Assembly (NCBI RefSeq): GCF_021028975.2
Contig: NC_059425.1
Span: forward strand, 19,778,001 to 19,842,000
Origin: Sphaerodactylus townsendi
Lineage: Eukaryota
Reading direction: 5' to 3'
DNA length: 64,000 nucleotides
In this document: positions 38,001 through 51,864 of the stretch, in pieces
Position numbering within the stretch: the first letter of the stretch is position 1
Layout of the letters: each line of letters starts with the position of its first letter
The notes under the pieces: model-generated
Told to the model about the DNA's origin: nothing
The model's input: only the letters and a program-made list of their open reading frames with translations
Database searches by the model: none
Made by a program: the position numbers and the translations under genes

Positions 38001-41000
38001 TGAACTGTTGCAGGCTATGCACTGGCAGGCTACACGGGCTTAGAGCCTTAATGCTCACGTCCATTTGTTGACAAGCACATGTGCTACAGATGAAATGCTG
38101 CCATCCCTCAGTAAGAGGGAGCCGAACCCTGAACGCTCCCAATTCACACAACATTTTAACAAGACATCCTCCCCCAGCAAAAACAAAAGCCAAAATCAAG
38201 GCAGCAATTTACCAGACAGAGGTGCTAGATCACCAGAACCATCCTAGCTGGAGCATGTGATATATCTCCTCTTTCTATTTCGGGAAGCAGTTGTTGAAGT
38301 GGTCAAGGTAGGTGGGCATTCAGCCATGCTCCCGGTACCAGTTGGGGTCTTTTTATCTGTCCCTGGAGGAAAGAGCCTCGTGAGTCACGCCTCTGTTTCT
38401 AGCGAGAAAGAACAGCCTTCTGGTCTGCTTCTCCCCACAGCCACAGGACCCGAACGTCGACTGGGAAGTGGTGAAAGACCTAGCCCAGAGAGGAAACCCG
38501 TGCTCTTGAGGTCCAGGAGACCAGATCGGAGGCGCTTGAGAAGTGCAGACAACCTTGTGTGGAACAAAGGAGAGGCACCAAGGCAGCAAGGCATGGTGGC
38601 AAACAGGACTGTAAGGAAGCAGGGCAGGGTGGGGCACGCATCTCAGTGGTGGAGCCCCACCTTTCAAGCCCAAGCCAGGAAGGAGGCTGACCCGCACAAG
38701 CTGCCGAGTACGGTTTTGCCGGCCAAAACAGCCGGACGAAGATGGGCCAAGGTATCAGAAGATTATTATTTCTGTGGGTTTTTGAGCCCCAGGGAGTTCT
38801 CTGGTATGAGTTCTGTTGAAATTAATGTCCTCCTGCATAACAGTGTGTGTATGCAGGTAGGTGGGCACCAGGAACATTATACTCTCACCTTTTTTCTTGA
38901 TGAGGAAGAGGGATGCTAGTGGAATTTACACACTATAAATAGGACTTAAGTGTACTGAATAACAATAAATAAAAACACCTCCAGCCCTGCTGCTTAAGAA
39001 CACAACACACAAACTTCAGTACTTACTAGCTAATTTACTAAGTGAATTGGAAAGTGAAAATAAGTGCACTACTGTCTAAAACAGCTATGAACATATATAA
39101 AGCCCTTCGGGGATGGGGTGGTATATCAAACTGAATAAATAATAATAATAATAATAAAAATACAAAAAGTTACAAAAAATACAAACCACTAATAATATAC
39201 ATATACAGGAAGTACAATTGTATACATAGGAACAATTATGATCTAGGAATTCTTTTTGTTTTTACTGTGTAGTGAAACACAGATTGAATTTAAAGATACA
39301 GTCCTTTACTGTCAGCATACCTGAAGGACTTAGTGGTTACAGTAGATGTACACCTTTCGGAGTGCAAAAATATCCAGAATAAGACATTCTAAAACGCCAT
39401 TCACGATAATGAGACATTTTCGTGAGCTCTTCTTCAGTAGAATGCAGTAACCATTAGGTACAGTCATAGTTCTCTGCGATTGGTTAATCCAATGCCATGT
39501 CAACGCAGCAACTTTCTTTTTTTTTTAATTAAAGTTTTATTTTATTAAAGATTAGAATCATATTTGTACAGTAAAAATAAGATTTACAGTTGTCTCACTG
39601 TTTCTTTTTCAAGAAAGTTGCCAGGACTTTACATTCCTACAAAGATCCTAATTGTACATATCTGGAGCGTTTCCTCAATTACATAATATCGCCCGTTATA
39701 TAAAGAATAGATAGCCCATCAAATTTGTGAGACATAAAAAGAGTTATCGTATATATGAGACTATAAGAGGGAAATTAAGCATATGTAGGTGGATAAGAAG
39801 AAAAAGAAGAAAGTGTGAGCTAACAAGGAAGATCAGAAGAAGATAAGAGAGAAAAGAGAAGATCACACCCTGTGGGGTGGGCACTGTGACAGAACCTGAG
39901 AATTCCTGCTCGTGGCAGACACAGAGGCTGACATCTCTGATTCTTCATTCTCTTCGTAGCGGTTCCTGTCTGTGCCCTGTCTCTGCCTTCTCCTGTTTCT
40001 GCTCATCCTGGGCTTCGCTTGCTGGTTCATCTGGAAACACGGAAGCCCTGTCTCTTCCCTGGAGCTGGCTGCTTATGGGCAGTGGGGGCTGGGCAGCATT
40101 CCGACGCTGTGGAGCAGGACAGAAGAATGTGGAACTCAGTGCAGGTAGGGGGCGTTTGTGTGCATGCACACTGGCTGCTGGTATGTGTGTGTGTGGTGTG
40201 GGATGTGGTGGTTGCTGAAGAAGTATGTGCTAGATGAGAGGAGGATGAGGGAGATCGAACTGAGAGAGTGATTATTATGGAGGTACTGGTTTAGTATCTT
40301 TCTTTTGCACAATAGAGCTCGTGATATACTTAAAAACCTTATCCGCTTAAAATTCCAGATGGCACTTTTAAAAACCTTAGATTACAATTCCAGGGAAGAC
40401 CAAACAGAGAATAACCAGTAAAAGGGGTGGTGGGGGCAGAGAAGATTAAAGGAAAAGGGAGCGACAGGAACAGGAACAAACAACTACAGAGATGGGGGCA
40501 GAGGTAGAGAGGCCAGTTAAGATGAAAATCATTGCTGCCTCAATCTTATAGGCCCTGTGAAACTGAGCCAAGACCCACAGAGCCTGGGTCTCACTCAATG
40601 GAGAGTTCCAACAGACGGGGGCCAGAGCAGAAAAGGCTCTGGCTCTGGCTGACAACAGCCAGAGACTTCTTGGGGCAGGGACCACCAGTAGGCTGTTACC
40701 AGCTGATCGTAATGCTCTTTGTGTGATGTATCAGAAGAGGCGGTCCCACAAGTACAATGTTTAGGGCTAACATTCCTACTTGTTGCGGCCTGCAGTGACC
40801 GCTTTACTTTAAAAAAAAAGAATTAGGAGAGTTGCATAGATTTCTGTATAATGGGATACAAGCTTTAGGAGAAGGTCCGAAAACACCAGAATATATTCAT
40901 TTATGTTCATTAGAATATTTTATCCTGGGTTTTGTTTGATTAACCATGTTTCAAGGTGACTCCCCTCCCCCCCACATCACAGGCTCGAACAAATTGTGAC

Positions 41001-50000: not shown

Positions 50001-51864
50001 AAAGGTCTCTGCCGATACCGTCTACCTGAGATCCTTTAACTGGAAATGGTGGGAATAGAACCTGGGACCTTCCACATGCTGTGAACATTCCATGCCATTG
50101 AGCCTCAGCCCCTCCCCCCCTTGAAAGTGACCCCCCACTAGGCTGTAATGTCTGTTTTCCTTTCAGAATCTTTTTGTTGTTCCTGGAGAGGGAGAACAAC
50201 CTCCGATTCCATACACACACGTCAATCACAACAAGTACATGGTGACTGACCGCCTGGCCTACATTGGTACATACCTCTCTGATTAGGGTTTGCCAGCTCT
50301 GGGCTGGGAATACCTGGAGATTTTGAGGGTGGAGCCTGTGGAGGGTGAGGTTTGGGAAGGGGAGGGACTTCAATGGGGTATAATGGCATAGAGGCTATTT
50401 CCCAAAGGAGCCATTTACTCCAGTTGACCTGATTGCCCTGGGTCAGGAATGATAGCCCCCTGAGTGGAATGACTACTCCTGGGAGAAAACAGAAGTGTTC
50501 TGGGACTGGAATGACAGCCCCTGTGATTGAAATCAGGGTTCTGCCCTGATAATCGCAAGCCTTCGAGTGGAATGAAATACCTTACACCAATTTCAATTGA
50601 AGGAGCCATCATTCCACCCTTGTGTCTGTCATTCCAGGCCCAAAACACTTCTCTTACTCCCAGGGGTTCTCATTCCGCTCTGGGATTTGGCATGTTCTGT
50701 CCATGCTGGTAAAGGTCAAGAAGTCAGGTATCTCTGTCTATACCTTTGATAGCAGAAAGCTGACAGCTGAGAAGGCTTGGTACTACTTGGTGAAGCTTCA
50801 GGTTTTGTACACAAACCAGGGGCCCAGTTATCCTCTCTCGTCCAGGGCCTACAGAAACCTGGAAGAGGCTCTGCAAGGCAACATTACAGAATCCTTCTTG
50901 ACAGATTTATTTTCACAAAAGCCCTTTGAGCTGAGAGACTGGGTAAAACATTTTTAAAACAGTTTCAAAATAGTTCTCTTTTTGCCATCTCACTGCCAAC
51001 TGCTAGTGGTCCGTGTTCGCTGTGGTAGGCTCATTTACTCTTTTGAGTGCCTTTTACAAATAATTTCTTGTTCACAAATATACAGGGGGAGGCAGTGGAA
51101 TTAAGCAGGCCAGCAAGCAGTTATTCGTGCAACATCAACCCAGCCTGTCAGTACCTCCCAATGCCACTTTCTGGATGACTTCCTGTGCTCTTGATCCTAC
51201 AGGAAGCTCTTAATTCTGTGCGGGTTATGTTTGATAGTAAATGAGTAGTAAGCTGCAGTATTGCAGCAAAATCTCTGTTCCTAACCTGAGTTGGATCTCA
51301 ACAGGGGTGGGTATCAGGCAGGCGACTCAAGGCTGACTCCGCCTTCCATCCTTCTGAGGTCGGTAAAACCCGTTTGCCGGAGGTAGTGTAGACAGCTGGA
51401 AAAGGCAGCGGTGAACTACCTATAAATAAAGTTTGCCTACCAGGGGTCTGCAACCTGCAGCTCTCCAGATGTTCATGGTCTACAAATCCCATCGGCCATG
51501 CTGGCAGGGGCTGATGGGAATTGTAGTCCATGAACATCTGGAGAGCTGCAGGTTGCAGACCCTGGGCCCTAGTAAATGTTGCAATGTGACATCACCCCAC
51601 AGGTCAGCGATGAACCAGTGCTTGCCTTTGCCTTTAATGCGTGCATATCTTTTTGACCCTCCAGGTACCTCCAACTGGTCTGAAGATTATTTTACCCAGA
51701 CTGCAGGGGTGGGGTTGATCGTCAACCAGAGCGACCATGACAGTATTACGGCAGGCCAGGAATTCACCCTGCGCCGCCAGCTGGAGCAAGTGTTCCTCCG
51801 GGACTGGGATTCCTCCCACGTTGTGCCACTCGACAGTCATAGAAGTTGCACTAGGAGAAATTAG
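32038..51864 (+). CDS. PLD7: PLD3/PLD4-like type II membrane phospholipase D-family 5' exonuclease, probably PLD7, about 707 aa
   Basis: Confident exons: 39960-40144 ([26 protein letters not shown]), 41688-41871 (LVLVESIP...[12 protein letters not shown]), 43209-43323, 45086-45213 (HTKFWVVD...[10 protein letters not shown]), 45314-45514, 47318-47457 (SSPP), 48115-48280 ([10 protein letters not shown]), 50167-50266 (HNKYMVTD), 51665-51864 ([10 protein letters not shown]). Tentative N-terminal exons: 32038-32241, 34372-34449, 36019-36130, 38441-38751. All are GT-AG and the phases close to 2124 nt. The family call is firm; the paralog name comes from synteny. Confidence 0.88.
32905..33385. mobile_element. 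Non-autonomous hAT element
   Basis: Inverted relative of 3039-3529; TSD GTTTAGAT. Confidence 0.85.
35355..36130 (+). pseudogene. Decayed PLD coding exon split by a hAT-like insertion (35605-35996)
   Basis: One frame runs from the acceptor at 35354/35355 to the donor at 36130/36131 once the insertion and one TSD (GCCTATGA/GCCTCTGA) are removed: 376 nt, phase 0 to 1. In-frame TGA at 35403 and 35556. Confidence 0.6.
36158..36376. mobile_element. Representative of an abundant MITE-like family with (A)GGGTTGCCA termini
   Basis: GTTGCCAGCTCC...TGGCAACCC. Related copies near 19700-19905, 19990-20190, 33890-34125, 36830-37035, 42010-42490, 44690-44890, 50284-50430 and 54473-54990. Confidence 0.65.
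36551..36825 (-). mobile_element. Squam3-like SINE
   Basis: Reverse-complement family copy. Confidence 0.72.
37668..37835. mobile_element. hAT/Charlie-like MITE (CAGTGGTTCTCAACC family)
   Basis: TIRs present. Copies at 41411-41596, 53846-54031 (TSD GTTTACAG), 57986-58118 and 63499-63610; the last two are cut by an LTR. Confidence 0.8.
41082..41381 (+). mobile_element. Squam3-like SINE
   Basis: Full-length family copy with a (TTC)n tail. Confidence 0.78.
42119..42264. mobile_element. Fully palindromic hAT MITE, about 146 bp
   Basis: Near-perfect hairpin, TSD CCATAGAG. Copy at 54545-54690 (TSD GGCTAGGG); relative at 51441-51564. Confidence 0.85.
42317..42457. mobile_element. Harbinger-like MITE
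   Basis: GGCTCATTCCGCAC...GTGCGGAAGGGGCC inverted ends; related nested copies at 47540-47826. Confidence 0.6.
43758..44065 (-). mobile_element. CR1 LINE 3' end
   Basis: TAAGAACATAAGA tail and CTGCTGGATCAGACC...CCATCTAGTCCAGC; older related pieces at 46520-47145. Confidence 0.75.
45737..46036 (+). mobile_element. Squam3-like SINE
   Basis: Full-length family copy. Confidence 0.78.
48490..48664 (+). mobile_element. 5S-Sauria-like SINE
   Basis: 5S-like GGAAGTTAAGCAGG...TAGTACTTGGATGGGA followed by the GGCAATGGCAAACCAC tail. Confidence 0.6.
51300..51636 (+). mobile_element. Sauria SINE fragment interrupted by a palindromic MITE
   Basis: GGCTGACTCCGCCTTCCATCCTTCTGAGGTCGGTAAAA core; (GCCTTT)n tail. 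Confidence 0.65.

What the first reader, a model, noticed from the sequence alone, without database searches (positions are those of the whole stretch)
39960..51864. Extra PLD3/4-type nuclease with two complete HKD motifs
Seen: [12 protein letters not shown] and [12 protein letters not shown], a single TM helix and several N-glycosylation sequons (NSS, NLT, NCS, NGS, NQS). Established: PLD3 and PLD4 are endolysosomal 5' exonucleases that limit TLR7/9 ligands and have Glu in the second motif (HxKxxxxE); PLD5 is catalytically dead. Inference: this is a further active enzyme of the family with a canonical second HKD, potentially an uncharacterised reptile innate-immunity or lysosomal lipid enzyme.
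Basis: partly seen in the sequence, partly recalled or inferred. Interest (0 to 1): 0.7.

Follow-up and report, generated by a model that had tools for sequence, protein, structure and literature searches.

The report
Gecko pld7, fourth PLD3-family enzyme
This gecko gene is pld7, a fourth member of the PLD3/PLD4/PLD5 family kept by fish, reptiles and marsupials; its intact active site likely trims DNA and RNA as PLD3 does, and its unusually long tail carries motifs that may tie it to chromatin at the nuclear envelope.

Summary
The gene is real and intact. It is the gecko ortholog of fish pld7, not PLD3 or PLD4, which lie elsewhere in this genome. Trees and synteny make it the fourth whole-genome-duplication paralog and the catalytically complete sister of the dead enzyme PLD5. 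Orthologs occur in sharks, bony fish, coelacanth, lungfish, caecilians, salamanders, reptiles and marsupials, so it is not reptile-specific. All catalytic and nearly all substrate-pocket residues are kept, so acid 5' exonuclease (possibly BMP synthase) activity is likely. The gene really starts at 23957: an assembly error hides a ~220-residue N-terminal tail. That tail lacks PLD3's tyrosine motif and conserves an HMGN/Dsup-like RRSxRL motif and a PxVxL (HP1-type) motif from fish to reptiles, which hints at an ER or nuclear-envelope location. No paper on pld7 was found. Activity, location and expression are untested.

The parts
23957..24037 (+). Coding exon 1: start codon and TPxRRSxRL motif (HMGN/Dsup-like)
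   Evidence: tblastn of gecko orthologs' N-termini, 68-92% identity; GT donor at 24038
32038..32241 (+). Coding exon 2 of the N-terminal tail, with the conserved PRxSI motif
   Evidence: motif in 59 of 114 tails
34372..34449 (+). Coding exon 3 (78 nt, in frame either way) carrying PxVxL-type motif PFVRLKRL; absent from several database isoforms
38441..38751 (+). Coding exon 4; 311 nt and frameshifted in the assembly, 288 nt and in frame in read contigs (38481-38571 is a bad patch)
   Evidence: 3 of 4 runs replace 91 letters by 68; the fourth has matching loose ends
39960..40144 (+). Exon 5: single transmembrane helix (type II, N-terminus basic) and lumenal stalk
41688..41871 (+). Exon 6: start of PLD domain 1, NSS sequon, F158/Y159 (human PLD3 F125/Y126)
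43209..43323 (+). Exon 7 of the PLD domain
45086..45213 (+). Exon 8: first HKD motif H232-K234-D239 and GSAN (N249)
45314..45514 (+). Exon 9: E260 (human E229), NCS and NGS sequons
47318..47457 (+). Exon 10: D359 (human PLD3 N328, PLD4 E341) and the C364-x-F366-C367 loop (human F335 loop)
48115..48280 (+). Exon 11: dimer helices, W398, H400, and clade-marking C385 and C422
50167..50266 (+). Exon 12: Y442 and second HKD motif H447-K449-D454
51665..51864 (+). Exon 13: GTSN (N463), Y468, T472, NQS sequon, stop codon
15524..16900 (-). Synteny marker: BTB zinc-finger gene, closest solved relative ZBTB18 (ZBTB3 by position; that name is inferred)
5524..6843 (+). Synteny marker: ATG8-family (MAP1LC3C-type) gene; another lies about 55 kb from PLD5
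266..775 (-). Synteny marker: first exon of a Dapper/Dact gene (Dact4 by neighbourhood)
   Evidence: locus description in PMC4236578

Best explanation
This is pld7, the fourth vertebrate paralog of PLD3/PLD4/PLD5 and sister of PLD5, and it likely works as a membrane-anchored, lumen-facing acid 5'-to-3' exonuclease for single-stranded DNA and RNA. Shown: gene structure, orthology, synteny, complete catalytic residues, PLD3-like predicted fold. Inferred from PLD3/PLD4 structures: His447, held by Glu260, attacks the first phosphodiester of a 5'-OH strand, forms a phosphohistidine, and His232 completes release of a nucleoside 3'-phosphate; the protein would dimerise through the conserved helices. 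Asp359 sits where PLD4 has Glu341, so it would be slower and more acid-dependent than human PLD3, and the same site could also make BMP from lyso-PG. Because it needs acid, it most likely acts in endolysosomes, but it would reach them by a different route from PLD3, set by a ~220-residue N-terminal tail with its own conserved short motifs.
For: Four family loci in the genome. The C4 locus is RefSeq PLD3 beside a kinase ORF; the C2 locus groups with PLD4. Tree of 51 rows: the 21-row clade with the query and fish pld7 has 100/99 support and joins PLD5 at 98/94; under a mixture model with 28 rows 95/92 and 99/96. AU tests reject query+PLD3 (p 7e-64), query+PLD4 (9e-59), clade+PLD3 (0.0012) and clade+PLD4 (0.0035). 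Neighbours (SAP-domain gene, Dact, ATG8-family, BTB-ZF, RPB7, EF1G) match the Dact4 locus of PMC4236578. H232, K234, D239, N249, D251, H447, K449, D454, N463, W398 and H400 are in 118 of 118 orthologs, E260 in 117, T472 in 117, Y468 in 117, and F/Y at 366 in 116. Dimer residues R350, F377, S380 are kept. Model pLDDT 86, Foldseek to mouse PLD3 8v06 E 5e-59, rmsd 1.7 A. Full-length ortholog ORFs of 667-875 aa on 2.1-4.4 kb Logan contigs imply spliced transcripts in other species.
Against: No activity, pH or location was measured. The tail lacks the membrane-near tyrosine motif that 100 of 118 PLD3s have (12 of 114 here, 11 of them turtle/crocodile) and instead conserves motifs that resemble chromatin-binding ones, which do not fit a lysosome. 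Human PLD3 N328 and R488 are not kept (D359; T522, weakly aligned), and N328E lowers PLD3 activity (PMC12749308). A CxxC pair now flanks the substrate-clamping Phe in 65 of 118 orthologs and could stiffen that loop. Whether nucleic acid or lipid is the main substrate is unsettled even for PLD3 (PMC12055030).
Confidence: 0.5

Rival explanations
1. Same gene and active chemistry, but the protein lives in the ER and inner nuclear membrane. Its tail would bind the nucleosome acidic patch (RRSxRL) and HP1 (PxVxL), with the PLD domain in the perinuclear space acting on lipid there, or staying latent until nuclear envelope and chromatin are sent to lysosomes.
For: Tail median 219 residues against 30 in PLD3. 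RR[ST]xR[LI] in 68 of 114 tails (shuffles mean 0.3, max 3) and VxLx[RK]-hydrophobic in 89 of 114 (mean 2.8, max 9), in sharks, ray-finned fish, amphibians and reptiles; 0 of 118 PLD3 and 0 of 8 PLD4/5 N-termini. The gecko motif PLRRSTRL resembles the Dsup segment PPRRSSRLT that binds the acidic patch (PMC12487698). [10 protein letters not shown] has the basic residues at +1, +3, +4 and hydrophobic ones at -1, +5, +7 described for HP1 access codes (PMC12526061). SRIP in 45 of 47 ray-finned tails resembles an EB1 tip motif (recalled), also an ER-type trait.
Against: Short motifs only; the same paper says PxVxL-like pentamers occur in nearly half of proteins and predict poorly. Shuffles ignore relatedness. 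Marsupial tails are short and match none of the patterns (0 of 2). RRS could be a kinase site and KRL a cyclin-docking site (recalled). The pocket still looks built for an acid substrate that the ER lumen does not obviously hold.
Confidence: 0.3
2. It is mainly a lipid enzyme (BMP synthase or other transphosphatidylase) with little nuclease activity.
For: PLD3 and PLD4 make S,S-BMP with the same histidines (PMC12055030). Acidic residue at the N328 position and loss of R488 remove phosphate contacts.
Against: The base-stacking and phosphate-binding residues F158, Y159, F366, W398, H400, Y442, Y468, T472 are kept. Asp at this position is also in 20 of 20 invertebrate homologs, so it is the old state, not a specialisation.
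Confidence: 0.12
3. It is a decaying or inactive copy (truncated gene, or a pseudoenzyme like its sister PLD5).
For: The assembly shows a frameshift in exon 4, and RefSeq starts at an internal Met. The sister clade PLD5 lost its catalytic residues.
Against: Read contigs restore the frame; other unpolished patches lie nearby. Catalytic residues are invariant in 118 of 118 orthologs.
Confidence: 0.05
4. It is the PLD3 or PLD4 ortholog, or a reptile-specific duplicate of one of them.
For: Automatic names call orthologs PLD3, PLD3-like or PLD4-like; identity to gecko PLD3 is 51.6% against 43-45% to PLD4/PLD5.
Against: Separate PLD3 and PLD4 loci exist; AU tests reject; orthologs reach sharks.
Confidence: 0.01

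Closest known systems
Fish pld7 ('phospholipase D family, member 7', database name only)
   Same: Orthologous: one well-supported clade, 56% identity over the lumenal domain, long tail with the same motifs, C385 and C422.
   Different: Ray-finned tails are longer (about 300-440 aa), carry SRIP and mostly lack PRxSI and the CxxC loop. No paper found.
PLD3 (lysosomal 5'-3' exonuclease, BMP synthase)
   Same: Type II topology, two HKD/E motifs, same exon sizes in the catalytic region, same predicted fold (rmsd 1.4-2.0 A), catalytic and most pocket residues, dimer residues.
   Different: Different locus and clade; about 52-54% identity; D at N328; tail about 220 against 30 residues, without the tyrosine motif; extra cysteines.
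PLD4
   Same: Acidic residue at the N328/E341 site; SEDY after the second motif; same fold.
   Different: 43-46% identity; keeps W398/H400 and Tyr at 442 like human PLD3; Asp in motif 2; different locus.
PLD5 (inactive)
   Same: Sister clade; shares C422 and D at the N328 site; both genes sit beside an ATG8-family gene and on the same chromosome as a Dact paralog.
   Different: PLD5 has lost His/Lys/Asn of the motifs; pld7 keeps them all.
HMGN/Dsup nucleosome-binding motif and HP1-binding PxVxL motif
   Same: Sequence pattern, conservation and position in a predicted disordered region.
   Different: Here they sit on a membrane-anchored lumenal enzyme; binding is not demonstrated.

Membership tests
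PLD3/PLD4/K4-type PLD family | Two HxKxxxxD/E motifs with GxxN in one chain | tested here: met
   Pfam PLDc, PLDc_2, PLDc_3 over cut-off
PLD3/PLD4/K4-type PLD family | Single N-terminal transmembrane helix and glycosylated lumenal domain | tested here: met
   hydropathy, model and sequons; glycosylation itself not measured
PLD3/PLD4/K4-type PLD family | PLD3-like two-lobed fold | tested here: met
   predicted model against PDB, top 21 matches PLD3/PLD4
PLD3/PLD4 lysosomal exonucleases (function) | Substrate-pocket residues of human PLD3 | tested here: met
   of the 21 human PLD3 motif and pocket positions taken from the papers, 17 identical, V199 to I, E423 to D, N328 to D, R488 not kept
PLD3/PLD4 lysosomal exonucleases (function) | Acid 5'-3' exonuclease activity | not testable with these tools
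   needs enzyme assay
PLD3/PLD4 lysosomal exonucleases (function) | Endolysosomal location and processing | not testable with these tools
   tail differs from PLD3; needs imaging
PLD3 orthologs | Groups with PLD3 and sits at the PLD3 locus | tested here: not met
PLD4 orthologs | Groups with PLD4 and sits at the PLD4 locus | tested here: not met
PLD5 orthologs | Degenerate catalytic motifs | tested here: not met
   a separate PLD5-type locus lies at C1:81.66 Mb
pld7 orthologs | Clade with proteins named pld7 in fish | tested here: met
   100/99 and 95/92 support
pld7 orthologs | Shared gene neighbourhood with fish pld7 | tested here: inconclusive
   gecko neighbourhood matches the Dact4 locus and a rattlesnake model is fused to RPB7; fish pld7 loci were not fetched
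Inner-nuclear-membrane chromatin tethers | Nucleoplasmic tail with HP1 or nucleosome-binding motifs | tested here: inconclusive
   motifs present and conserved; binding and location untested

The most novel reading that the evidence does not exclude
pld7 is an inner-nuclear-membrane PLD: a nucleosome- and HP1-binding tail anchors it to peripheral heterochromatin while an intact nuclease/transphosphatidylase domain faces the perinuclear space, pre-loading a nuclease on chromatin bound for lysosomal destruction or remodelling nuclear-envelope lipid. An alternative exon would switch the HP1 site on and off, marsupials would have shed most of the tether, and placental mammals the whole gene.
Probability: 0.3. 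Interest if true: 0.8.

Novelty: new variant of a known kind. Interest (0 to 1): 0.5.

Why it matters
PLD3 and PLD4 control TLR7/9 ligands and BMP synthesis and are linked to human disease; PLD5 is a pseudoenzyme of unclear role. pld7 is the overlooked active sister of PLD5. It gives a direct way to ask what PLD5's ancestor did, and it may mask pld3/pld4 knockout phenotypes in zebrafish or lizards. It also shows that the 'HKE' second motif is a mammal/bird/PLD4 trait, not a family feature. If the tail does anchor it to chromatin at the nuclear envelope, it would be a location for this enzyme family that my searches did not find described.

Tried and rejected
Second-motif Asp as a mark of novelty: rejected. 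Reptile-specific duplicate: rejected. Truncated or frameshifted gene: rejected as an assembly error. Expression: no RNA holder listed among 15 runs; not evidence either way. Complex prediction of an HP1 chromoshadow dimer (fish-type sequence from a metagenome contig) with the Paroedura tail peptide: no verdict, score 0.22 against a mark of 0.34, controls not run; not evidence either way. ESM Atlas gave no answer for the tail. Pfam found no domain in the tails of 9 family proteins above cut-off. Literature: 'pld7'+'phospholipase D' gave 2 irrelevant papers; 'pld7'+'zebrafish' 0; PLD3/PLD4/PLD5/ohnolog showed no occurrence of 'ohnolog' in the 25 of 36 listed; PLD3/paralog/marsupial/reptile/gene loss showed no 'pld3' in the 15 of 164 listed. 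PMC3296468 (gene losses in mammals) has no PLD mention in the main text and its supplements could not be read; 12 of 14 supplement files of PMC4236578 held no gene-name hit. A recalled likeness of the RRSxRL motif to N-termini of SUN and LAP1 proteins could not be confirmed in PMC3093325 and stays a recollection. A search for PLD3's tyrosine sorting motif found nothing relevant, so its role is assumed, not sourced. Earlier scan findings: none. Absence from birds, frogs and monotremes was not properly tested: one search lists only 120 of 2180 hits.
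Full report
Observation. Nine GT-AG exons between 39960 and 51864 join into one open frame of 472 residues, contained letter for letter in RefSeq XP_048368793.1, a 525-residue 'PLD3-like' protein of the gecko Sphaerodactylus townsendi. There is one hydrophobic helix and all five named sequons are present; NSS and NQS are kept in 92 and 112 of 118 orthologs, NLT in only 18.

The gene is longer than reported. N-termini of other geckos' orthologs match four more exons, from an ATG at 23957. The fourth (38441-38751) is out of frame in the assembly, which is why RefSeq starts at an internal Met. 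Contigs from 3 of 4 sequencing runs replace window 38481-38571 (91 letters) by 68 letters, and the fourth run shows loose ends at the same places. That makes the exon 288 nt, in frame, and the first read letters translate to the sequence seen in orthologs (my reading of table 7). Similar unpolished patches lie at 24525-24636 and 31132-31173. The best run may be the assembled animal; two others are a second sample and another organism. The real protein is about 689 residues (27+68+26+96+472), like Paroedura (689) and Heteronotia (690).

Identity. The genome holds four family loci: this one, C4:0.55 Mb, C2:166.47 Mb and C1:81.66 Mb. C4 is RefSeq PLD3, beside a protein-kinase ORF and a long repetitive ORF that I read as HIPK4 and PRX (kinase domain, names recalled). 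C2 groups with PLD4 and lies beside a 3069-residue repetitive ORF read as AHNAK2 (name recalled). C1:81.66 has the degenerate QSS motif of PLD5. The best hits of the window's protein come from squamates, tuatara, turtles, alligator, caecilians, salamanders, lungfish, coelacanth, sharks, rays, bichir, sturgeon, gar, teleost proteins named pld7, and marsupials (120 of 2180 listed; dunnart). In a 51-row tree these form one clade (100/99), apart from PLD3 (100/98), PLD4 (99/95) and PLD5 (100/100), and join PLD5 at 98/94. A 28-row subset under a mixture model gives 95/92 and 99/96. AU tests reject the query with PLD3 or PLD4 and the whole clade with either (p 7e-64, 9e-59, 0.0012, 0.0035). Rows were chosen by hand from the hits; PLD4 and PLD5 are thinly sampled (4 rows each).

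Synteny. Around the gene lie a SAP-domain gene, a Dact gene, an ATG8-family gene, a BTB zinc-finger gene closest to ZBTB18, then RPB7 and EF1G. PMC4236578 (passages) describes the Dact4 locus with Ttc9, Hnrnpul2, Map1lc3c, Zbtb3 and Polr2g, and pairs Dact2/4 and Dact1/3 as products of two genome duplications. In the gecko an ATG8-family gene also lies about 55 kb from PLD5, and Dact paralogs lie 8 Mb from PLD5 and 6 Mb from PLD4; the fourth Dact is not on the PLD3 contig. The tree shape ((PLD3,PLD4),(PLD5,pld7)) fits that pairing. That it arose by whole-genome duplication is inference. Mammals are described as having six PLDs (PMC10783504, PMC12055030; passages), so placentals appear to have lost it; birds, frogs and monotremes were not properly tested.

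The second-motif Asp is ordinary. I aligned 118 of the 120 listed hits and 118 of the 120 (dropping the same two PLD3 records with internal duplications). Asp is in 118 of 118 pld7, 87 of 118 PLD3 and 15 of 20 invertebrate homologs; the 31 PLD3s with Glu are 30 named birds and one unnamed record. This gecko's PLD3 reads HNKYMVSD. [quoted passage not shown]

Likely chemistry. Using human PLD3 positions from PMC12749308 (parts 1-4 of 7), the query keeps H201, K203, D208, N218, D220, E229, H416, K418, N432 and the pocket residues F125, Y126, F335, W367, H369, Y411, Y437, T441; V199 is Ile, N328 is Asp and R488 is not kept. The predicted structure (pLDDT 86) matches PLD3 and PLD4 crystal and cryo-EM structures at 1.4-2.0 A. 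So a phosphohistidine, 5'-to-3' exonucleolytic mechanism is inferred. An acidic residue at N328 lowers activity and restricts it to acid pH in PLD4; Asp here is in 114 of 118 pld7 and 20 of 20 invertebrates, so it is probably the old state. Clade-specific cysteines: C385 and C422 in all orthologs, and a CxxC around the clamp Phe in 65 of 118; disulfides are a guess.

The tail is the real difference. It has a median of 219 residues before the membrane against 30 in PLD3 and no Pfam domain. A membrane-near YxxPhi is in 100 of 118 PLD3s but 12 of 114 pld7 tails (4 of 118 had no callable helix). Three short motifs persist in otherwise unalignable sequence: RR[ST]xR[LI] (68 of 114), VxLx[RK]-hydrophobic (89 of 114; [PC]xVxL in 81) and PRx[SP]I (59 of 114), far above shuffles and absent from PLD3/4/5 N-termini for the two tested. 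Rows are related, so these are not independent counts, but the first two occur in sharks, ray-finned fish, amphibians and reptiles. The first resembles the Dsup/HMGN segment that binds the nucleosome acidic patch (PMC12487698 passages); the second fits the extended HP1-binding signature (PMC12526061 passages), which also warns that such pentamers predict poorly. In squamates it sits on its own 78-nt exon, missing from about half of the database isoforms (12 of 25 have it). Fish add SRIP (45 of 47). Marsupial tails are short and match none of the patterns. These motifs make an ER or inner-nuclear-membrane location a serious rival to the lysosome, but nothing here shows binding or location.

Verdict. 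A real, intact, already annotated but apparently unstudied paralog: no paper on vertebrate pld7 turned up (the library lacks most subscription journals, and supplements of PMC3296468 could not be read). Identity as pld7 is near certain; catalytic activity likely (about 0.85); endolysosomal acid exonuclease as the main role 0.5; nuclear-envelope or ER residence 0.3. Other papers seen: PMC12684396 (passages), PMC3093325 (passages), PMC3296468 (passages), PMC12494813 (passages, nothing relevant).

Noticed in passing
window 38481-38571, 24525-24636, 31132-31173: Unpolished assembly patches; the first creates a false frameshift that truncates the RefSeq model of this gene by about 165 residues.
   Followed up: yes
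window 54995-57531 and 60499-63069: Near-identical ORF translations about 5.5 kb apart: a local tandem duplication or an assembly artefact.
   Followed up: no
window 5524-6843 (+) and G000:C1:81712719-81720289: Two ATG8-family genes, one beside pld7 and one beside PLD5, likely sister paralogs of MAP1LC3C type.
   Followed up: partly
window 266-775 (-) and L037:5175-6647: Divergent Dact gene (Dact4 by neighbourhood), reported lost in mammals, birds and amphibians.
   Followed up: partly
P0105, P0131, P0153 (marsupial proteins): Marsupials keep a fast-evolving pld7 (long branch, short tail, Asn at the Y126 position in the two rows aligned), annotated as PLD3-like or PLD4-like.
   Followed up: partly
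PLD3 hits: Position N328 of human PLD3 is Ser, Asn or Asp and H369 is often Ser in other vertebrates, so PLD3 activity and pH range may differ between lineages.
   Followed up: no
about 152-157 kb downstream of window start (G000:C1, near 19.93 Mb): gag-, protease- and env-like ORFs of an endogenous retrovirus-like element; observed only.
   Followed up: no
P0065 (rattlesnake): A database model fuses the pld7 ortholog to the neighbouring RPB7/POLR2G gene; probably a read-through annotation, but it confirms the adjacency.
   Followed up: partly
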